64,000 bases of DNA from positions 1 to 64,000 of IMG/VR virus record IMGVR_UViG_3300014205_000015; one strand, written 5' to 3'. A model generated the notes under the pieces. It made no database searches. It was not told where the DNA came from and saw only the letters and a list, made by a program, of their open reading frames with translations. Shown here in pieces: positions 2,834 through 33,059 of this stretch. This DNA comes from a virus. Its lineage: Duplodnaviria; Caudoviricetes. How positions within the stretch are numbered: position 1 is the stretch's first letter; the number at the start of each line of letters is the position of its first letter. The translations under genes and the position numbers were made by a program.

Positions 2834-5800
2834 ATGAGCATAGCACAATACAGATCACTCCCAACGTCCGTTGCTACAGCAGCCGGTCTGGCGAGAACTA
2901 GCTCGCGCACTATCTCTGGTGGAGTCGTCTCTACCACTGGTAGATTGACTGCGGGTGACGGTGGGCGTGCCGACTATCTATATCGCCGCACTGGCAGGAG
3001 CGGCGTCACGATTGATGATGGAGCCTATATAGCTGGCCCTGGAAGTGACGACTACTGGGAACTGGCTAATCGCGATGACATTAACATTGCGGTGTTTAAT
3101 GTTGACCGGACTGGCGCGACCGACTGCCGCAGTAGTATCGTCTCGGCATTGGCTGTACTTAATGGCGAGGGAGTGCTGCGATTCCCGCGAGGTACTTATC
3201 TTGTTTCTACCAGCCTAGCAATAGATCACAGGATTGTTCTTGAGATTGGGGCTATTCTCAAAGCAGCCAACGGGGCGGTGATTACCCTGCCCAATAGTTA
3301 CGAAGCGGACGATCATCAGGTGTGCTTTGACATCTCCCTTGGCGGAAGTGTCTTGGCTAGTCGTGAGTATGTTTCGACTGTTCATTTTGGGGCGGATAAA
3401 ACAGGAGTGGCGGATTGCTCGACAATTCTCAACGCGGTTATTGATACATATAAAACCAGCCCCACCAAAATCAAGGTTCCGTCTAACGCAACGCACTTAT
3501 GTAACTCAACGCTTACGGTGTCTGGTAGTGGTAATCATCTCAACATATTTGGAGAAGGCGAGACTTCTTGGATTTACAGCCCCTCAGCTATAGTGGCGAT
3601 CAATAGTTCGCTCTCTAGTGCGTACACCACAATTCGTAATATGAAGATCAGTGGCAATGGACAGGCAGCAGATGGCATATACTGCCGCATTAGCGCCACA
3701 GACATAACGATTGAAAACTGCGATGTGTCTGGGTTTGGGCTTACTGGATCGACAGCGCAGATTAATTGCGAAGACTGCACGCGAGTTCGAATCGTTGGTA
3801 ATCGAGTTAGCGGTGGTGGTGATACAGAAGATTCGCTTGACTCAGATATTCGCATCCTAAACTGCCAAGACTTTGAGGTAGCCAGGAACCGATGCACATC
3901 AGGCAATAGTGAGGGCATTGCCATCAGTCAGACTACGACGGGTGGGCTCCGTGGGGTTGTAATCGGAAACATCATTACCGGGCATCGTCGTCATGGAATT
4001 TTATTTGCCTACGACAGCGACCAATGTGAGTTAGCGATTGTTGGAAACCGGATACACGATTGCCAGTGGACAGGCTTGTACTCCATTGAGGCTGACGTGC
4101 TGGAGCCGTCTAGCATTCAGGGTAAATGCGCTATTGTTGGTAACGTAGTGACGCATAGCGGCGGTGGCTACGCAGCCGATGCGGCTGGCAATGGTGGCAT
4201 CCACATTGCAGGTAGGCTCGGGACCACTGTTACAGGGAACACTGTCACAGACTGCGGCTATGACCCAGACGGCACTCTGCAAACGGTTTACGGTCGCGGC
4301 ATCTACCTCAATGGTTGCTCCAACGTAGCGTGCAGCGGTAATTCAGTAAAGAACTGTTCGAGAAGCGGAATTGAGATATTCACAAGCTGGGATGCAGACG
4401 GGATCGTGATCGGAAACAACTCAATCACAGACTGTGTGTTTGCGTGTATCACGATCAGTAACTCGGGGACAACTTACACGAAGTCTGACCTCATTGTGTC
4501 GGACAATGTTTTGCGACAAGTAACCCAGGACGGCTACGGCATCCTGATAATGGAGGATGCGGGCGGGATTGACGTGGCGATACATGGAAACACGCTCCAC
4601 GGAAGACGCGCCGGGACGAACATTCCGGCTATTTATCTGCTGCGCGAGCGAGCTAAGTCTATCTCGATCTTTAACAACACTATGGTCGAGTGGGACTATG
4701 GGCTACAAGCTGACTACGGCACAGGCGATGAGGAAGACTGGATTATCGGTATCGGCTGTCGGATGGATAGGAATACATTCATTAGTGTCGATACGCCATT
4801 TAAGACGCGGCCAGTGTACGCTGCTGTGGGTCGGTCGAATGTGTTTGTTAATTGCAACCCAGGGTTCTCGTCCTTTAAGGTTCCAGCAACTTATGAAAAC
4901 GGAGTGATGCGAGGTTATTACGTTGGCGGTTTACCAACTCGGCGATGCCGCAATGGCGATAGACTGGAGCCGCTAGAGGCCGACTCAACGCAGAACCTTG
5001 CCTGGATCAATAACGCCACGCCGCCTTCATCAAAGACGATTAGCAATTCGACGTTAGCAGACGACACTATCACTGTAACGAGCCACGGATTCACGGCTGG
5101 GCAGCGGGTGAAGGTGGCTGGTTCAAGCCTGCCAGCTCCGCTGGTTAGTGGGCAGGAGTATTACGTTAGGTCTGCACCAACTGCCAATACGCTTGTCCTT
5201 GAGGCTTTCAACTCAGCAACCAACGCTGTGGATATCACCGCAGATGGCGGCACTGGGACTATTCAGGCTCTTGACTACGATCCAAGCTGGGTGCAATACC
5301 CTGACCCTGAAGGTGCTCCACAGTCAACCTATGAAGACTTAGCCTTGTCTGCTGTCAATCGCTGGATGGGTGATGCCGATGGCGATACCAACGGCGATCC
5401 AGACGACAGTAATGGCAGTGCGGATTTAACATGGACTGGTGCGCCTGTGTATGGCGGTACGCTTCCGGTTGGCTCGGAAGGTAAGACGTTCACACTCAAC
5501 GGAACTGATAATGTCCTGACGAGCGGGGCTGGTGTTGGTGACTACACTGACAACTTTTCAGTGGGAGGCTGGATCAACCTGACGAACATTGATTCTGGCG
5601 ATAGGTTCATATCGAAGCGAGACGGGTCTAATGTGGCTTGGGATTTTGGGGTGGGTGGCGGCGGACTGATCTATATGTTTGATTCTGAGAATACTGGCCA
5701 TACTGGAAATCTCGATATTGTCACAGGGCAGTGGCAGCACATAGCTATTGTCATTAAGAATGGAATTGGCAAGTTCTACGTGGATGCAGTGCAGTCAGGT

Positions 5801-27519: not shown

Positions 27520-27990
27520 ATGAGCGAACGATGGGACAATCATTTCTTGCGATTGTGTCAGGACCATGCAAGGATGTCGAAAGACCCAAGCACACGAGTT
27601 GGCGCTGTAATAGTCGGACCTGACGGGGAAATTAGGTCGGCTGGATTCAACGGTTTCCCACGCGGAATTCTCGATAGCGACGAACGCCTGAACGACCGAG
27701 ACACAAAGCTAAAGCTGATGGTCCACGGGGAAATGAACGCGATTTTAGCAGCTGCGAGAGTTGGGACGCCGGTGAAGGGATGCACGCTGTACCTCGCGGC
27801 TACTGATTCATCGGGGATTGTGTGGGGCGGTCCTCCGTGTGTGCGCTGTACAGTTGAAGTAATTCAGGCAGGCATAACAGAAGTGGTGTCTTACCCCAAA
27901 CGCAGTGTTCCATCAAAATGGCATGAGGATTTGGCAATGGCTGAAACTCTTTTACGTGAAGCGGGGATTGGTTACAGATGCGTCGATTAG
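27520..27990 (+). CDS. dCMP deaminase (ComEB-like zinc deaminase)
   Basis: SKDPST.VGAVIV, GFNGFPRG, HGEMNAI, PCVRC. Confidence 0.92.
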   Translation: MSERWDNHFLRLCQDHARMSKDPSTRVGAVIVGPDGEIRSAGFNGFPRGILDSDERLNDRDTKLKLMVHGEMNAILAAARVGTPVKGCTLYLAATDSSGIVWGGPPCVRCTVEVIQAGITEVVSYPKRSVPSKWHEDLAMAETLLREAGIGYRCVD

Positions 27991-28277
27991 AAATCAAACC
28001 CGGAGAAACCTACGGCGACCTCAAAATCATCAAGGAAGTCGAATCCAGGGGCAAACGTCACTTTTTATGCCAGTGTGCCTGTGGCGGAAGTCCGTCAGTT
28101 CACCGACTGGGGCACTTACGCTCAGGTCACGCCACGACATGCGGTCGCTGTGGTTTCGAATTTGAGGGACAGCGGAAGACAATCGCAGATTGGGCGGAAT
28201 TGTATGGGCTGAAGGAGTCTACGTTGCGAGCTCGGCTAAAGGTGATGGGCGTTAAAGAGGCACTGGAGCGGACATGA
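27978..28277 (+). CDS. HNH-family derivative lacking the nuclease core (zinc finger fused to HTH)
   Basis: YGDLKII..CQCACG..CGRC joined directly to G.RKTIADWAELYG..STLRARL. Confidence 0.7.
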   Translation: MRRLEIKPGETYGDLKIIKEVESRGKRHFLCQCACGGSPSVHRLGHLRSGHATTCGRCGFEFEGQRKTIADWAELYGLKESTLRARLKVMGVKEALERT

Positions 28278-28657
28278 GCCAAGCCGACGAATACATCCAG
28301 GAAGCACTGGAGCTAGCAGAGGACAATGCTGGTGACCGCTGCCCGCTGTCGTCCGATGCGTGTGGTGCATACTTCGAGCAGATACGGGACTTGTTACGGA
28401 AGGTGAGCGAAAACGCCGGACAGAACGTGAGCCAAGCCGATTCCGAGGAAATGCACACTGCCCTAGAGCAGATAGCAGCGCTAGCCCATCATGGTGGACT
28501 GATAGGATTCTCGGACGTAGACAAGTGCCTGAGAGAAGTACGGCGGATTTCGTTGAAGTGGTGGGACAAGAGCGAGTGTGCTAGGCTGCAAGAGGAAATA
28601 GACGCAGTTCCACCAGGGTTTTCAGATTCTTCGCACTTTCCTATTGACCCACAGTAG
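28274..28657 (+). CDS. hypothetical protein
   Basis: ATGA-coupled. Confidence 0.65.
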   Translation: MSQADEYIQEALELAEDNAGDRCPLSSDACGAYFEQIRDLLRKVSENAGQNVSQADSEEMHTALEQIAALAHHGGLIGFSDVDKCLREVRRISLKWWDKSECARLQEEIDAVPPGFSDSSHFPIDPQ

Positions 28658-28672
28658 CAAGCTGTATAAAGT
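28644..28672 (+). promoter_or_regulatory. sigma70-like promoter of the repeat-array operon
   Basis: TTGACC-N17-TAAAGT; spacer resembles that of the 26182 promoter. Confidence 0.6.
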
Positions 28673-28783
28673 ATTAAGTGTTGGCTCCCGGAAAAGACTC
28701 AACAATACAAACCGTCGATTTACTGTGCGTTTCTTTCCGGGAGCCAACGCAGTGATTCGGCGGTTTTTTATTGGAGTGATGCG

Positions 28784-29269
28784 ATGGCTATTGTTGAAAA
28801 AGCAAGAGTGAAATGGGCAGATAAAGAGGCGGCAATTCGGTCGCTCGAGTCTGGCGGTAAAATCGACCCACTGGATTTGATTGAAGCCGCTCGCGATCCT
28901 GAACATCCGTGTCACTCTGATTTCACTTGGGACATCGACCAAGCGGCTGCCGAACGGTGGCGGGATCAAGCCCGTGAGTTGATTCGCTCGTGCAAGTTTG
29001 AAGTGCGAGTGGAAGACGTAGGCAGCAGGGTTTGCATGTACGTTCCATCTGGCGACGAAGATGCAACATTCGTGTCACTACCAAAGATTCGCAGCAAGGC
29101 TCAGGCGTCTGCGGTTGTTCTAGCGGAGGTTGCCATGTTGCTTGGGAATGCTTCTCGGGCATACGGGATAGCGTTGTCGAAAACGAACATTGTTGGCGCT
29201 GACGTTGTTGTTCAGTTGAAAGCGATTCGCGAACTGGTGGCTACGCTGAAGGCTGAGCTAGAGGATTGA
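28784..29269 (+). CDS. accessory protein of the array system (helical, possibly DNA-binding)
   Basis: DLIEAARDPEHPCHSDFTWD...A...ARELIRS; first gene of the operon, directly followed by array 1. Confidence 0.75.
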   Translation: MAIVEKARVKWADKEAAIRSLESGGKIDPLDLIEAARDPEHPCHSDFTWDIDQAAAERWRDQARELIRSCKFEVRVEDVGSRVCMYVPSGDEDATFVSLPKIRSKAQASAVVLAEVAMLLGNASRAYGIALSKTNIVGADVVVQLKAIRELVATLKAELED

Positions 29270-29275
29270 TTCATT

Positions 29276-29593
29276 GGTCAAGGAATGTCGGGGCGTGGTT
29301 CGGCGTGGTGTTTCAGGTTTCGGTATGCTTGGGCGGTCATGGAGAGGTCGGGCTAGGTGCGCTCTTGCGAGTCGAGTCGAGGCGGTCGAGTCCGTGCGGG
29401 GTGCGGAGTGCTCTGGTTGGGTCGGTCCAGGTTGGGTTCGGCGGTCGCGGTTAGGAATGGCGTGCTGCGGCGAGTCGGGGCTCGTTCCGGTTGGGCGGTC
29501 AAAGTGGGTCAAGGCTTGGTGCGAAGTGGTGCGTCCTGGAAAGGCGGTCGAGGCGGGGATTGGAGTGGCCCGTATTGGTCCGACAAGGCGGTC
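29276..29593 (+). repeat. 5-nt periodic guide-like array 1 (6 units, GGTC-NN-[GGY-NN]n-GGC)
   Basis: Units start at 29276, 29335, 29384, 29443, 29497, 29546; lengths 59, 49, 59, 54, 49, 44 (all 5n+4). Confidence 0.92.
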
Positions 29594-29681
29594 AGAGAGA
29601 GAAGGTTTTTGGTTTGGAGAGTGTTTCTCCAGACTCCTACACAACAGGGGTGTTTCACCCCGCAATTAAGGAGAAGCCATT

Positions 29682-30446
29682 ATGGCAAAAGCATCTGGTG
29701 TTTTGGAAGCGATTGAAGTTGAACCACTACGAGTTGGCAGTATGCAAGTCTGGCTGCGTGGTATCACGCCGCTGATCTGTAATCGATTGGCGGCAAAGGC
29801 ACGGCGCGAGCTGTTGCTTCCGAAGGGACGAAAGTCGACGGCGGAAAAGCAGCAATCGCTGAAGCATGATCCGGTAGCTGAGTTCCGAGACAGCATGAAT
29901 GTGCGATCTGGTGTTGGACCTACACGAGTAGTGTTTCCTGCGCCCGCAGTGAAGGGTTCTATGGCTACTGCCGCGCTGGAGACGAAAGGCACGAACAAAA
30001 CGCAGATTGGTCGTTTGGTTCGTGTGGCTGGTTATTCACTGGATGTCTACGGAATACCAGAATTATTCATGGCTATTGTTCGTTCGGCGGACATGGCTCG
30101 GACGCCCGACGTTCGGACGCGAGCGATCTTGCGCGAGTGGTGCATGCCTGTTACCGTTCAGTACGTCAAGCCGCAGATGTCTGAGCAGGCTATTATGCAA
30201 TTGCTTGCCAACGGCGGAATTATCATCGGAGTAGGTGATTTTCGTCAAGAAAAAGGCAAAGGCGATTTTGGCTGCTACGAGGTCGTCACCGAAGCCGATT
30301 GTAAGGACATTATCAAAAATGGCGGGTTGAAGCAGCAAGACGCTGCGATCAAGACTCCCGTCTGCTTCGACAGTGACACTGAAGAACTTTTAGGCTGGTT
30401 CCAACAGGAAGTTAAAGTTAGAGGAAAGGGAGAACTGGTTGCCTAA
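29682..30446 (+). CDS. Cas7/RAMP-like RNA-binding protein (VIPR-like effector candidate)
   Basis: N-terminal beta strand 'WLRGITPLI', FPAPAVKGS helix, RTRA..W core, C-terminal Gly-rich loop GGIIIGVGDFRQEKGKGDFG; flanked by both arrays. Confidence 0.75.
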   Translation: MAKASGVLEAIEVEPLRVGSMQVWLRGITPLICNRLAAKARRELLLPKGRKSTAEKQQSLKHDPVAEFRDSMNVRSGVGPTRVVFPAPAVKGSMATAALETKGTNKTQIGRLVRVAGYSLDVYGIPELFMAIVRSADMARTPDVRTRAILREWCMPVTVQYVKPQMSEQAIMQLLANGGIIIGVGDFRQEKGKGDFGCYEVVTEADCKDIIKNGGLKQQDAAIKTPVCFDSDTEELLGWFQQEVKVRGKGELVA

Positions 30447-30455
30447 CTGTCAATT

Positions 30456-31106
30456 GGTCGCGGAGAGGTATGGCAACATAAGTCACGGTCCGGCGAGTCA
30501 TGTCCGGGCGGTCATGGAATGGTTGGGCACGGCACCATATGGTATGTCGCGGCTTGGCGTGGCGGTCCCGGTTGGGTCCGGTAAAGCTGGTCGGGGCGGG
30601 GTGTTGCGAGCCCGGGTTTGGCGGTCGGGGTACGGTTCGGCACGGCGGGTCGGAGCATGGAATGTTGCGGCGGTCGCGTCGAGGTGCGGTGCGTTTGGGC
30701 GAGTCCAGGCGCGTCGGGGTATGGTTGGGCGGTCGAGGTGAGGAAAGGCTGCGCTAGTTCAGGCGAGTCATGGCACTGGCGGTCGCGGTATGTCCTGACT
30801 AGTCATGTGAGGAAAGGCGAGGCGGGGCGGTCGAGTCGGGTCTTGGAGAGGTTCGGTCCGTTGCGGTCTGTCCGGGCGGTTTGTCAAAGCTAGGCTGCGC
30901 GTGGCGGTCATGGTGACGAGAGGCTGGGTATGGTACGTCGCGGCGGGTCTGGGGCCGGTGAGGCGGTCAAGATTCGTCAGGTCGCGGACAGGCGGGGCGG
31001 GGTACGCTTAGGCGGGCCTAGTCCTGGCGGTCGCGTCGGGGTCTGGAGTGGCACGGTCGGGCAAGGTGAGTCGAGCTCTGGCGTGGTGAGTATCGGCAAG
31101 CCGGTC
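30456..31106 (+). repeat. 5-nt periodic guide-like array 2 (12 units)
   Basis: Units start at 30456, 30510, 30564, 30623, 30672, 30731, 30781, 30829, 30878, 30906, 30965, 31029; junction GGC-GGTC. Confidence 0.92.
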
Positions 31107-31127
31107 GTGATTGACTGTTAAGAGGTC

Positions 31128-33059
31128 ATGCAGCACAATTGCTGCATGACCTCTCCTTTTTTTGATTTAGTCCCAAAAGACCCAATTGAGAATCTCCGTT
31201 GGCGCATTCGTTGCCGCGAGCGTGCATTGGCTGATAAGCGGTTTCGAGACTCGCTATATCAAGCGTGCATGAGTGATCTTTGTTTCTGGATGGCATTTGC
31301 CTGTTGGGGATACGACCCGCGAGCCCGCTTCAAGATCGTTCCATTTGTACCCTATCCACATCAACAAGCTGTGTTCGTGGCGATGGATGAAGCCATAAGC
31401 ACTGCCGAACGTGAAGAACGATCGGTCGACGTGATCCTGGACAAAAGTCGGGCTCAAGGTGGATCTTTTGGATATCTTTGGGTCGACCTTCGGCGCTGGC
31501 TGCGCGATCCAATGTTTTCAGCAGGTTTTGTTACGAAAAATGAAGATTCGATTGATTCAAAGAGCGACTCATCGACGGTGCTGTGGAAAGTGGCATGGGC
31601 GATTGAGCGATTGCCTTTCTGGATGAAGCCCAATTACGAACGGCATCTTGGTCAGCACACTTTCATTAACAACGACAACGGTTCGTTATTGCGAGGATAC
31701 TCTGCAGGGCAAGACGTGGCAGCCGGTGGCCGTACGACTGTGTTCACAGTGGACGAAGCTGGCGCGAGAGACTTCGTTTCAGGTGGCAAAGACGAAGCGG
31801 TTCAGGAGTCTATTCAAGACGTGTCCAACTGCATTCGCATGGTCTCTGCTCGTTACGTGGATGCAGGTGTCTTTCACGAAGCCTGCGAAAACCCAGACAC
31901 GAAAAAGAACGGTATTCATCTTATACTGGACTGGAAAGACCACCCCGCTCAAAGCAAGCACTCTTACATTGTGCGAGAGGGAATCGCGGTTGCCATAAAG
32001 CCGGAAGATCAAGCGGCGGTCACGGAATACCACCGAAAACACCCTGACCTGCGATCCCGACTGGAAAGAAAAGGATTTAAATTTGAAGTGGTTGTTCGCA
32101 GTCCGTGGTACGACTCTCGATGTTTGCGCCCGACAGCCACCCCGCGACTGATAGCTTCGCAGCTCGACCGCAACCCTCGCGGAGCAGTAGGTAAAGTTTT
32201 CGCATCAGACCTCTTGGACCGCATGAAGCGAGAGCACTGCAAGGGTCCAGTTTGGGTGGGCAATCCAGTATTTGACTCAGAAACCTGCAAACTAACGGGA
32301 TTGATTCCCAGGGATGACGGCTTGCTGAAACTGTGGTTCAAGCCGGGCATCGACAACTCACCGCCGCTGGGACCGTTCACCGCGGGATGCGACATCGCTT
32401 CGGGTGGAGTTGGGGCGTATTCCTCAAACTCGGTCATAACGGCGCTGGACGACAGAACCGGGGAGCAAGTCTTGGAGTACACGGTCAAGGGACTCGAGCC
32501 ACGACCGTTTGCACGCCGGGTGGTTGGGCTGTGCATGTGGCTTAGAAACGCACTGCTTGGCTGGGAGGATTCCGGGGTGTCTGGTGGTTTTGCTAAGGAA
32601 ATCATGGAAGTTCTTTATTATGGTTCCGTGTTCTATCGGGACGTAAACCAGCTCGGTTCCCAGAAGAAAAGCCGCAAGCCTGGCTGGCCGTGCCGTGACG
32701 CAGACAAAGCGGACGATTTTGAGCAAATGGCGCTGGCGATGGAGACTGGGAAGTTCGTTCCGCGTTCCGAGGAAATGATTGTCGAGTGTTCTGAATATGA
32801 GTGGGACGGCACCAAAATCATTCACGCACCGTCGAAAAACAAGGGGGCGGCTGACAAGAATCACGCCGACCGCGCTATAGCAATGGCAGGCTGTTGGAAG
32901 GTCTTTAGCACCGATAATGCAACCCGTAAGATTGACACAGACGTGGAAAACGGTCAGAATCCAGAGTACGGCTCGTTTTTATGGCGAGAGCAGCAAGAGC
33001 GCCGGAACGTGAAAACGGGTAGCCCGAAGTTCGGGATTAGGGACATTATTGGACGCTAA
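31128..33059 (+). CDS. terL: terminase large subunit
   Basis: PYPHQ, Walker A-like KSRAQGGS, Walker B VDEAG, RNase H-like GCDIASG, HADRAIA. Confidence 0.92.
   Translation: MQHNCCMTSPFFDLVPKDPIENLRWRIRCRERALADKRFRDSLYQACMSDLCFWMAFACWGYDPRARFKIVPFVPYPHQQAVFVAMDEAISTAEREERSVDVILDKSRAQGGSFGYLWVDLRRWLRDPMFSAGFVTKNEDSIDSKSDSSTVLWKVAWAIERLPFWMKPNYERHLGQHTFINNDNGSLLRGYSAGQDVAAGGRTTVFTVDEAGARDFVSGGKDEAVQESIQDVSNCIRMVSARYVDAGVFHEACENPDTKKNGIHLILDWKDHPAQSKHSYIVREGIAVAIKPEDQAAVTEYHRKHPDLRSRLERKGFKFEVVVRSPWYDSRCLRPTATPRLIASQLDRNPRGAVGKVFASDLLDRMKREHCKGPVWVGNPVFDSETCKLTGLIPRDDGLLKLWFKPGIDNSPPLGPFTAGCDIASGGVGAYSSNSVITALDDRTGEQVLEYTVKGLEPRPFARRVVGLCMWLRNALLGWEDSGVSGGFAKEIMEVLYYGSVFYRDVNQLGSQKKSRKPGWPCRDADKADDFEQMALAMETGKFVPRSEEMIVECSEYEWDGTKIIHAPSKNKGAADKNHADRAIAMAGCWKVFSTDNATRKIDTDVENGQNPEYGSFLWREQQERRNVKTGSPKFGIRDIIGR

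What the first reader, a model, noticed from the sequence alone, without database searches (positions are those of the whole stretch)
28644..31119. RNA-guided-looking module: Cas7/RAMP-like gene between two 5-nt-periodic guide arrays
Seen: promoter, then a 161-aa gene, array 1 (6 units), a 254-aa gene and array 2 (12 units), directly upstream of terL. Every unit parses as GGTC-NN-[triplet-NN]n-GGC. The triplet is near-invariant (mostly GGT/GGC; also GTC, GGA, GCT, GTT) and NN varies freely, e.g. 30623: GGTC gg GGT ac GGT tc GGC ac GGC gg GTC gg AGC at GGA at GTT gc GGC. Established: the protein ends in a Gly-rich loop (GGIIIGVGDFRQEKGKGDFG) of the kind that marks RAMP/Cas7 proteins, which coat guide RNAs with a fixed nucleotide period. 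Inference: each protomer binds a GGY and displays NN for base pairing. No Cas1/2/3/6 or nuclease is in the locus, so it would be a minimal binding/silencing system. From memory this matches phage 'VIPR' (viral interference programmable repeat) systems; I could not verify this.
Basis: partly seen in the sequence, partly recalled or inferred. Interest (0 to 1): 0.97.

Follow-up and report, generated by a model that had tools for sequence, protein, structure and literature searches.

The report
Phage VIPR RNA-guided silencing module
This is a genuine VIPR system, a phage-borne and CRISPR-like RNA-guided gene silencer first described in 2026 preprints. Its guides spell out the terminase and VIPR genes of rival phages, a primase, and a bacterial CBASS defence enzyme.

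Summary

- **Arrays.** Window 28644-31165 is a self-contained cassette in a complete 77.7-kb uncultured phage. Two same-strand arrays (29276-29593 with 6 units; 30456-31106 with about 11) consist of NN-GGY pentamers. NN carries 0-0.1 bits of information; G is 90% at pentamer position 3. Units are 5n+4 nt long and joined at GGC|GGTC. This is the 'staggered', 1-nt-overlap array architecture described for VIPR.
- **Protein.** The 254-aa protein has a Cas7/Csm3-type RAMP fold (pLDDT 96; Z 9.1). It hits the solved SUSP1 Vipr protein by sequence (profile E 2.5e-8). The GG-binding residues are conserved (R147, D186, F187, R188).
- **Partner gene.** The 161-aa gene is a conserved partner, a Vap candidate, found next to vipr in 97 of 164 homologous loci.
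- **Targets.** Under the published 1-nt-skip rule, and not under 0- or 2-nt skips, five guides have strong wobble-aligned targets. Two hit terL of kin phages, one hits a conserved vipr motif, one hits a primase-helicase zinc ribbon, and one hits the catalytic motif of CBASS CapV-like patatin effectors. The phage's own terL and vipr sites stay below 80% match.

Verdict: a new member of a known kind. The CBASS-directed guide is the one possibly new point. This scan's first-stage readers had already noted this stretch and the decoded targets.

The parts
28644..28672 (+). Promoter-like site (TTGACC, 17-nt spacer, TAAAGT) at the head of the cassette
   Evidence: Consensus scan scores it 9 of 12. 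The same element, TTGACC...TATAGT, is conserved in kin phage L178, where it heads a different cargo gene.
28680..28775 (+). Conserved leader: a long hairpin (GTTGGCTCCCGGAAA ... TTTCCGGGAGCCAAC) followed by GGCGG plus a T-run
   Evidence: Read from the sequence and conserved in L178:488-585. No Rfam match. Function unknown.
28784..29269 (+). 161-aa Vipr-accessory (Vap) candidate
   Evidence: tblastn finds a homologue next to vipr in 97 of 164 loci. It lies upstream of vipr in this clade and directly downstream in distant clades. Matches phrog_15946 (unknown function) at 3e-14 and has no Pfam hit. ESM Atlas neighbours are 93-100% viral hypothetical proteins.
29276..29593 (+). vrRNA array 1: six staggered units (59, 49, 59, 54, 49 and 44 nt) closed by a terminal GGTC
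   Evidence: Every unit is 5n+4 nt long and holds 8-11 NN-GGY repeats.
29647..29661 (+). Small GC hairpin (GGGGTG TTT CACCCC) between array 1 and the vipr ribosome-binding site
   Evidence: Its role is not tested.
29682..30446 (+). vipr gene: a 254-aa single-RRM RAMP protein with a thumb (R147) and a G-loop (G183-V-G-D186-F187-R188)
   Evidence: AF2 pLDDT 96.1. Foldseek top hits are Csm3 and type VII Cas7, E 2e-6. VIA-align Z 9.1 to Cmr4/Csm3 over residues 14-205. PDB 36pp_D 'SUSP1 Vipr protein' scores E 0.0027 with the single sequence and 2.5e-8 with the profile.
30087..30115 (+). Own vipr thumb-motif site (ADMARTPDVR), the non-matching counterpart of guide 30456
   Evidence: 15 of 20 NN bases match here. 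The consensus ADMNKTPDIR site in other vipr genes matches 17-20 of 20 in 136 of 165 loci.
30456..31106 (+). vrRNA array 2: 11 units (54, 54, 59, 49, 59, 50, 48, 77, 59, 64 and 74 nt) closed by a terminal GGTC. Unit 30829 is degenerate.
   Evidence: Guides with identified targets start at 30456 (vipr), 30564 (primase-helicase), 30623 (patatin/CapV), and 30965 and 31029 (terL).
31121..31164 (+). Intrinsic terminator: 15-bp stem, 4-nt loop, T-run
   Evidence: The hairpin and the preceding GTCGTGATTGAC are shared with kin L177 and L178, which lack vipr. It therefore belongs to the insertion slot rather than to VIPR.
31443..31561 (+). Own terL sites homologous to the targets of guides 30965 (31443-31477) and 31029 (31521-31561)
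   Evidence: Own sites match 19/24 and 22/28. Kin phages match up to 23/24 and 25/28. The differences include Ser TCA to AGT and Arg AGA to CGG codon-family switches.

Best explanation
The cassette is a VIPR (Viral Interference Programmable Repeat) system of the staggered-array kind, carried as an accessory module just upstream of terL in a complete, probably virulent, uncultured phage whose nearest prophage-borne relatives sit in Planctomycetota MAGs. Inferred mechanism, taken from the published SUSP1 work: the two arrays are transcribed from the cassette promoter towards the terminator at 31121. Vipr protomers polymerise along each unit, one protomer per pentamer. Each protomer sequesters the GGY triplet through the thumb arginine and the G-loop D-F-R, and displays the NN dinucleotide. 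The -1 register slip at every GGC|GGTC junction delimits the units, giving vrRNAs of 8-14 repeats. Each filament binds double-stranded DNA whose sequence reads NN-x-NN-x, and it blocks transcription. Shown here in silico: five of the 17 guides have targets far above chance, all under the 1-nt-skip rule and nearly all with the skipped base on the codon wobble position. The targets are the terL Walker-region of kin phages (two guides), a near-universal thumb-coding motif of other vipr genes (one guide), the zinc ribbon of a primase-helicase (one guide), and the catalytic GTSTGGIIA motif of CBASS CapV-type patatin effectors (one guide). The phage's own terL and vipr sites fall just under the published 80% match threshold, so it spares itself. 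The 161-aa protein is the system's Vap partner.
For: - Literature: VIPR is defined by a Vipr RAMP protein, a vap gene and GGY/NN vrRNAs, with a 1-nt-skip code, staggered arrays that overlap by 1 nt, and vipr-targeting guides.
- Protein fold: AF2 pLDDT 96; every top structural hit is Cas7/Csm3/Cmr4, at Foldseek E 2e-6 and Z 9.1.
- Protein sequence: phmmer and profile hits to PDB 36pp 'SUSP1 Vipr protein' at E 0.0027 and 2.5e-8. These align R147, D186, F187 and R188 to R138, D177, W178 and R179. R147, G183, G185 and R188 are invariant, and D186 is at least 90% conserved, across 117 family members.
- Arrays: pentamer statistics. GGYNN runs cover 14,546 nt on the vipr strand against 495 nt on the opposite strand across 81 homologous loci. 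Anchor spacing is 4 mod 5 in 74 of 99 cases in relatives.
- Targets in kin loci: under skip 1 the best matches are 20/20, 23/24 and 25/28, against a shuffle maximum of 15-21. Skips 0 and 2 give nothing. All three are in codon phase 0.
- Targets in IMG/VR: guide 30623 has 59 exact hits and guide 30564 has 19. Four other guides gave 0-2 hits. Of the hits, 54/59 and 17/19 are coding-sense and wobble-aligned.
- Target gene families: Patatin plus PADLOC phospholipase effector at 1e-65 to 1e-102, and Zn_Ribbon_Prim+Toprim+AAA_25. CBASS cyclase genes lie adjacent in L267 and L196.
- Self-sparing.
- Vap linkage.
- Terminator.
Against: - Nothing here shows transcription, processing, RNP formation or silencing.
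- Twelve of the 17 guides have no identified target.
- Equivalents of SUSP1 H17 and K33 could not be aligned.
- Homology to SUSP1 Vipr covers only the thumb-to-G-loop third of the protein.
- GTC (17%) and other non-GGY triplets are commoner than in the SUSP1 description.
- The patatin and primase hits lie in contigs of 28-64% GC, so they identify the targeted gene class through a conserved motif rather than the actual in-situ target.
- Only 1 of 401 genomes of the candidate host phylum holds an exact patatin target.
- The phage has no tyrosine integrase. Silencing a constitutively expressed CBASS effector after infection might come too late to help.
Confidence: 0.93

Rival explanations
1. The G-rich repeats are DNA-level packaging signals (pac/cos sites bound by a small terminase), and the 161-aa or 254-aa protein is TerS. 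The position directly upstream of terL would fit this.
For: The cassette occupies the slot where terS and pac usually lie, next to an HNH endonuclease gene and terL.
Against: The 254-aa protein has a RAMP fold, not a TerS fold. The closest terL kin (82-89% identical) lack the arrays and vipr altogether. Homologues with arrays occur in unrelated phage backbones without this terL. The NN positions decode to other genes under the skip-1 rule. A protein-binding DNA repeat would not predict that.
Confidence: 0.02
2. It is a degenerate or minimal CRISPR-Cas system (type III or type IV-like) whose Cas7 binds conventional contiguous guides.
For: The nearest solved folds are Csm3, Cmr4, type VII Cas7 and type IV Csf2.
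Against: There is no repeat-spacer array and no other cas gene in the cassette. The periodicity is 5 nt, not 6. Contiguous (skip 0) reading of the guides finds nothing. The best sequence match in the PDB is Vipr, not any Cas protein.
Confidence: 0.02
3. The arrays act as an RNA sponge or attenuator for a TRAP-like or CsrA-like triplet-binding protein, with regulatory titration and no guide function. The target matches would then be by-products.
For: Triplets spaced by 2 nt resemble the TRAP binding sites, (G/U)AG with 2-3-nt spacers (my own knowledge of the B. subtilis trp system).
Against: Under this model the spacer dinucleotides should carry no information. Instead they spell in-frame conserved motifs of terL, vipr, primase and patatin, with 19-59 exact database hits against 0-2 for the other guides. 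The unit structure and the Vipr homology are also unexplained.
Confidence: 0.02
4. It is a true VIPR locus that is decaying or partly inactive, with many units no longer functional guides.
For: Unit 30829 is degenerate: 77 nt, broken register and a run of non-G triplets. Units 30731 and 30781 carry a 1-nt register shift. Twelve guides have no detectable target.
Against: The vipr and vap genes are intact, and vipr keeps every family-invariant residue. Fourteen of 17 units keep perfect register. Five guides have perfect or near-perfect targets.
Confidence: 0.1

Closest known systems
VIPR systems with staggered vrRNA arrays (fig. S18 of bioRxiv 10.64898/2026.04.26.720920)
   Same: Shared features are a Vipr RAMP protein plus one accessory gene, same-strand arrays of GGY/NN pentamers, adjacent vrRNAs sharing 1 nt so that the unit period is 5n-1, no structured tail, and viral carriage.
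   Different: The paper's supplementary data were not available, so the numbered type (I-VII) and vap class of this clade could not be assigned. Here arrays lie on both sides of vipr, and vap is upstream.
Type II VIPR of Escherichia phage SUSP1 (PDB 36pp; bioRxiv .720920, .720927 and 2026.10.15.759431)
   Same: Shared features are the thumb arginine and the G-loop G-V-G-D-aromatic-R, 8-14 repeats per guide, 1-nt-skip wobble-aligned targets in catalytic or conserved motifs, guides against other vipr genes, and self-sparing.
   Different: Only about a third of the protein aligns by sequence. W178 is F here. This protein is 254 aa against 202, with a C-terminal helical extension. It has no roughly 40-nt pseudoknot tail. 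It carries 17 guides against 4. GTC is a frequent triplet variant. Targets include terL of kin phages and a CBASS effector rather than a satellite recombinase.
Class 1 CRISPR backbone proteins (Csm3/Cmr4/Cas7, types III, IV and VII)
   Same: Shared features are the RRM core, thumb and glycine-rich loop, and a helical filament along a guide RNA with periodic base flipping.
   Different: The period is 5 nt with three guide bases hidden, against 6 nt with one. There is no second RRM, no CRISPR array, no adaptation or nuclease genes, and sequence identity is 7-16%.
TRAP (trp RNA-binding attenuation protein) binding sites
   Same: Both have triplets repeated with 2-nt spacers on an RNA that is wrapped by an oligomeric protein.
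   Different: The fold is unrelated. TRAP spacers carry no information, whereas here they carry the specificity.

Membership tests
VIPR | Vipr protein: single-RRM RAMP fold with a thumb and a glycine-rich loop | tested here: met
   AF2 pLDDT 96. Foldseek top hits are Csm3 and type VII Cas7, E 2e-6 to 1e-4. VIA-align Z 9.1-7 to Cmr4, Csm3, Cas7-11 and Csf2 over residues 14-205.
VIPR | Sequence homology to an experimentally characterised Vipr protein | tested here: met
   PDB 36pp_D 'SUSP1 Vipr protein' scores E 0.0027 with the single sequence and 2.5e-8 with the 117-sequence profile. It is the only significant PDB hit. Only profile positions 149-197 align.
VIPR | GG/Y-recognition residues (SUSP1 R138, D177, W178 and R179) | tested here: met
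   They align to R147, D186, F187 and R188. R147 and R188 are invariant and D186 is at least 90% conserved in the family; the family consensus has W at position 187.
VIPR | SUSP1 H17 (beta-sheet contact to G1) and K33 (bundle contact to the target backbone) | tested here: inconclusive
   The N-terminal two-thirds does not align significantly to 36pp. No Vipr chain appeared among the matches in the fold library, whose entries run to 2026-04-08.
VIPR | Flanking same-strand arrays of GGY/NN (YNNGG) pentamers with conserved triplet and hypervariable NN; at least 4 repeats | tested here: met
   17 units of 8-14 repeats. NN carries 0-0.1 bits; G is 90% at position 3. The periodicity is unique to these arrays in the genome. 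It is present in 77 of 81 homologous viral loci.
VIPR | Staggered array: adjacent vrRNAs overlap by 1 nt | tested here: met
   Unit length is 5n+4 for 14 of 17 units. The same spacing holds in 74 of 99 cases in relatives. This matches the legend of fig. S18.
VIPR | Conserved 3' tail or pseudoknot after the repeat tract (type II/SUSP1 clade only) | tested here: not met
   Units abut directly at GGC|GGTC and there is no Rfam structure. This argues against type II membership but not against VIPR, since the paper describes staggered arrays as an alternative to the tailed type II architecture.
VIPR | Two-gene core: vipr plus a vipr-accessory (vap) gene | tested here: met
   A homologue of the 161-aa protein lies adjacent to vipr in 97 of 164 loci, in either order. 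Which of vap1-6 it is could not be tested.
VIPR | Targets obey the 1-nt-skip (NNx) rule, usually wobble-aligned in coding sequence, with no self-target at or above 80% | tested here: met
   Only skip 1 gives hits above the shuffles. The hits are in codon phase 0. Own sites match 75%, 79% and 79%.
VIPR | vrRNAs are expressed, co-purify with Vipr and silence targets | not testable with these tools
   This needs sRNA-seq, pull-down and reporter assays.
VIPR | Minimal locus without a CRISPR array or cas genes; viral carriage | tested here: met
   The ORF list and repeat scans of the cassette show none. The genome is a complete 77.7-kb virus record with direct terminal repeats. A genome-wide cas search was not run.
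CRISPR-Cas (class 1) | Repeat-spacer array plus a multi-gene cas operon | tested here: not met
   No direct-repeat/spacer array and no other cas-like ORF lie in or beside the cassette.

The most novel reading that the evidence does not exclude
This phage may use VIPR as an RNA-guided anti-defence weapon as well as against rival phages. Guide 30623 is a perfect, coding-sense, wobble-aligned match to the catalytic-serine motif (GTSTGGIIA) of CBASS CapV-type patatin effectors. The matches include a cyclase-patatin operon in a genome of the phylum that holds this phage's nearest prophage relatives. The three VIPR preprints do not mention CBASS, patatin or phospholipase, and no paper in the searchable library links vrRNAs with CBASS. 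A second less-described aspect is reciprocal targeting of terL among kin phages. The resident terL escapes partly through synonymous Ser and Arg codon-family switches, which are the only silent changes visible to a reader of codon positions 1-2.
Probability: 0.35. Interest if true: 0.7.

Novelty: new member of a known kind. Interest (0 to 1): 0.42.

Why it matters
[quoted passage not shown] This locus is an independent, sequence-distant example from an uncultured phage, with closest relatives in Planctomycetota MAGs. It obeys the same code: five guides could be decoded from sequence alone. That supports the generality of the 1-nt-skip rule and of the staggered architecture. It also widens the known target repertoire to the packaging ATPase of sibling phages, a primase-helicase and possibly a host CBASS effector. 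If the CBASS guide is functional, phages would have an RNA-programmable route to switch off abortive-infection genes.

Tried and rejected
- Single-sequence AF2 was useless (pLDDT 32). The 117-sequence alignment fixed it.
- Pfam gave nothing for either cassette protein, and PHROGs gave only families of unknown function.
- Rfam found no family, so the arrays are not of the hammerhead-interspersed type.
Related loci came from the search for related loci instead. The first genome contigs attempt failed for lack of a conserved stretch and was redone with a smaller alignment.
- Guide searches that found nothing convincing:
  - The central 18 bases of guide 29384 gave 2 IMG/VR hits, at chance level and not wobble-aligned.
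- The centre of guide 30672, full guide 30906 and full guide 29443 gave 0 hits.
  - Twelve guides had no hit above the shuffles in about 1.4 Mb of related loci and whole kin contigs.
- The constant CG of the junction (C|GGTC) does not take part in pairing. The codons preceding the targets are Ser or Asp, not CGx.
- Skip 3 only recovers the arrays themselves.
- A family-wide all-against-all test of 313 relatives' guides gave only modest enrichment: 15 real against 5 shuffled at 90% match or better. The database covers little beyond the VIPR flanks.
- The ESM Atlas gave no functional lead for the 161-aa protein, and the PDB gave none either.
- The VIPR type number could not be assigned because the paper's supplements are not held.
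Full report
**Observation.** The region holds two intergenic arrays on the + strand that flank a 254-aa gene. The heptamer GGCGGTC occurs 31 times in the window against 9.2 +/- 3.1 in shuffles, and 16 of those lie in the arrays. Anchor spacings are 44, 49, 54, 59 or 64 nt, that is 5n+4, for 11 of 14 intervals. Of the three exceptions, 50+48 equals 2x49, and the 77-nt interval is a degenerate unit. Each unit parses as GGTC followed by n pentamers of the form NN + triplet. Positions 1-2 of the pentamer carry 0.1 and 0.0 bits. Position 3 is G in 90% of cases, position 4 is G or T in 89%, and position 5 is C or T in 85%. The 5-nt periodicity of G is absent from the coding sequence between the arrays. 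Across the complete 77.7-kb genome it is confined to these two regions, at about 5 SD above the mean. A strict GGYNN-run detector finds nothing else on either strand. I count 11 anchored units in array 2. The glycine-rich loop is at residues 178-197, not at the protein's end.

**What the literature says.** Three 2026 bioRxiv preprints describe Viral Interference Programmable Repeat systems.
- Components: a Vipr protein (a minimal single-RRM RAMP), usually one accessory gene (vap), and vrRNAs made of 9-16 YNNGG repeats.
- Mechanism: Vipr protomers bind one repeat each, hide the GGY triplet and present NN. The target DNA is read as NN-x-NN-x, the '1-nt skip', usually with x on the codon wobble position. 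The outcome is transcriptional silencing of competing satellites, prophages and other VIPR systems.
- Diversity: seven types are described, including 'staggered arrays' in which neighbouring vrRNAs overlap by 1 nt, and ribozyme-interspersed arrays.

**The protein.**
- Pfam finds nothing, and PHROGs gives a family of unknown function.
- The family is large: 1,482 homologues in one search and 1,526 50%-identity clusters in another.
- With a 117-sequence alignment, AlphaFold gives a pLDDT 96 model.
- Foldseek and VIA-align return only Cas7-family backbone proteins at the top: Csm3, Cmr4, type VII Cas7, Cas7-11 and type IV Csf2. Scores are E 2e-6 and Z 9.1-7 over residues 14-205.
- By sequence, the only significant PDB match is 36pp, 'SUSP1 Vipr protein'. 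It scores E 0.0027 with the single sequence and 2.5e-8 with the profile.
- That alignment places R147, D186, F187 and R188 on the residues shown by cryo-EM to hold the two guanines and the pyrimidine (R138, D177, W178, R179). R147 and R188 are invariant in the family, D186 is at least 90% conserved, and the family consensus at 187 is W.
- The equivalents of H17 and K33 could not be aligned.

**Comparative evidence.**
- In 81 viral loci encoding homologues (44-89% identity), strict GGYNN runs cover 14,546 nt on the vipr strand and 495 nt on the other strand. Seventy-seven loci carry them, directly beside vipr or one gene away.
- In relatives that use the same GGCGGTC junction, including one at 46% protein identity, spacing is 4 mod 5 in 74 of 99 cases. 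Most of the remainder are 3 mod 5, the value expected when two units are separated by a degenerate anchor.
- The unit period 5n-1 is what a 1-nt overlap of two pentamer registers produces, so this is the staggered architecture.
- Rfam finds no ribozyme.
- A homologue of the 161-aa protein accompanies vipr in 97 of 164 loci. It lies upstream in this clade and immediately downstream in distant ones. That makes it the accessory (Vap) gene of this lineage. Its fold and class remain unknown.

**Targets in kin phages.** I extracted the NN strings of all 17 units and searched them with 0, 1, 2 or 3 skipped bases. Shuffled guides served as the null. Only the 1-nt-skip reading gave hits above the null; skip 3 trivially recovers the arrays themselves.

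*Guide 30456, the first unit after the vipr stop codon.* It spells A-D-M/I-N-K-T-P-D-I/M-R, the consensus thumb motif of the Vipr family. It matches 20/20 in 22 loci and at least 17/20 in 136 of 165 loci. The phage's own gene reads ADMARTPDVR and matches 15/20.

*Guides 30965 and 31029, the last two units.* They match the Walker-region of terL in kin phages at up to 23/24 and 25/28. This includes the closest terL relatives (82-89% identical), which have no VIPR at all. The phage's own terL matches 19/24 and 22/28. The differences include Ser TCA to AGT and Arg AGA to CGG, which are silent changes that alter codon positions 1-2. All three of these targets are in codon phase 0. Conversely, a kin phage's guide (L005) matches this phage's terL at 18/20.

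**Targets in the wider collections.** These searches followed peptide-decoding leads in earlier first-reader notes.

*Guide 30623.* It has 59 exact matches in IMG/VR. Fifty-four are coding-sense and wobble-aligned, and all of those encode GTSTGG(I/M)(I/M)A. The three target ORFs sampled are patatin-like phospholipases that match PADLOC CBASS 'Effector: Phospholipase' models at 1e-65 to 1e-102. In L196 an oligonucleotide cyclase gene lies directly downstream of the patatin gene. Among 401 genomes of the phylum that holds the nearest prophage-bearing MAGs (Planctomycetaceae and Thermoguttaceae, 73% Vipr identity), one has an exact match. It sits in a cyclase-patatin CBASS operon.

*Guide 30564.* Its 22 specified bases have 19 exact matches. 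Seventeen are wobble-aligned and encode PCP(N/K)CGGVDRF, the zinc ribbon of primase-helicases of about 650 aa.

*The other guides tested.* Four gave 0-2 hits, which sets the empirical chance level. The target contigs span 28-64% GC, and this phage has no patatin or primase homologue. These hits therefore identify gene classes rather than the actual victims.

**Genomic setting.**
- The genome is a complete virus record with direct terminal repeats and has no tyrosine integrase.
- The cassette sits between an HNH endonuclease gene and terL.
- Its promoter-like site and a long leader hairpin are conserved in kin phage L178, where they precede a different cargo gene.
- The strong terminator hairpin at 31121-31154 is shared with kin that lack vipr.
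- VIPR is therefore one of several alternative cargos in a variable slot. Vipr homologues also occur in phages with unrelated terminases.

**Mechanism.**
- Shown by sequence and structure prediction: a Vipr-family RAMP protein with the GG-binding residues, a conserved partner gene, and staggered GGY/NN arrays whose variable dinucleotides spell conserved coding motifs of other elements under the skip-1 code while sparing the phage's own genes.
- Inferred from the SUSP1 work: transcription of the arrays, one protomer per pentamer, filament assembly, triplex-type R-loop formation and transcriptional repression.
- My own inference: the -1 register slip at GGC|GGTC ends one filament and starts the next, so unit boundaries are set by the register.

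**Rivals.** The following are each contradicted by the fold, by the comparative data or by the information content of the NN positions:
- a TerS/pac-site reading;
- a degenerate CRISPR-Cas system;
- a TRAP-like sponge.

Partial decay of some units is possible: unit 30829 is degenerate and 12 guides are orphans.

**Verdict.** This is a bona fide VIPR system, so the kind is already known from the 2026 preprints, and this locus is a new, distant member of it. Neither CBASS nor patatin appears in the two VIPR preprints searched, and no paper in the searchable library mentions both vrRNAs and CBASS. The CBASS-effector guide is therefore the most novel reading, and it is unproven.

Noticed in passing
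window 28640-28790; L178:440-600: A promoter-like site plus a roughly 95-nt leader is conserved between this phage and kin L178, where it drives an unrelated gene of about 190 aa. The leader is a long hairpin followed by GGCGG and a T-run. It may be an attenuator or a small RNA that belongs to the variable slot upstream of terL. It has no Rfam match.
   Followed up: partly
L175:4392-4934 (-), L178:600-1175, window 28274-31120: The slot between the HNH gene and terL holds different cargo in different kin: the VIPR cassette here, a minus-strand 180-aa HNH-like ORF in L175/L176, and a gene of about 190 aa in L178. It looks like a cargo-exchange hotspot bounded by a shared terminator hairpin.
   Followed up: partly
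L177:520-575: Kin phage L177 lacks vipr but has four clean NN-GGY pentamers (aaGGT gaGGT ttGGT cgGGC) right before the shared GTCGTGATTGAC and terminator. This could be a remnant or solo vrRNA, like those reported for VIPR-null SUSP1 relatives. It is too short to call.
   Followed up: no
window 31578-31606 and 31521-31549: Guides of kin phages (L005 unit at 2410; L002 unit at 4229) match this phage's own terL at 18/20 and 17/20. This suggests reciprocal terL targeting within the phage group.
   Followed up: partly
window 30087-30115 versus 165 homologous loci: Within the otherwise near-invariant Vipr thumb motif A-D-M/I-x-x-T-P-D-V/I-R, the two middle residues are polymorphic (NK, NR, AR, AK, KR and others). 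The anti-vipr guide reads exactly these codons. This could reflect escape from vipr-targeting guides, or simply a tolerant loop tip.
   Followed up: partly
window 27520-27990 and 27978-28277: A dCMP/cytidine deaminase gene (Pfam 1.6e-16) and an HNH endonuclease-like gene (phrog_374) lie just upstream. A 127-aa ORF at 28274-28657 has no homologue in any related locus.
   Followed up: no
window 31128-31170: The listed terL start codon at 31128 lies inside the terminator hairpin, and tblastx alignments to several kin (L175, L176, L179-L181) begin at about 31149. The true terL start may lie a little downstream.
   Followed up: no
L196:7318-11357: One IMG/VR contig that carries an exact target of guide 30623 has the patatin gene followed by a CD-NTase cyclase (7e-106), with a type I methyltransferase adjacent. 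This is a defence island on a 'viral' contig.
   Followed up: partly
Gordonia phages Pipp, UmaThurman, ODay and Ecliptus (MN234179, NC_031249, MW534375, OP820472): These are the only isolated phages in the GenBank phage set with a detectable homologue of this Vipr (24% identity, E 2e-9 to 9e-5). All are annotated as hypothetical proteins. They could be culturable models for a related VIPR clade.
   Followed up: no
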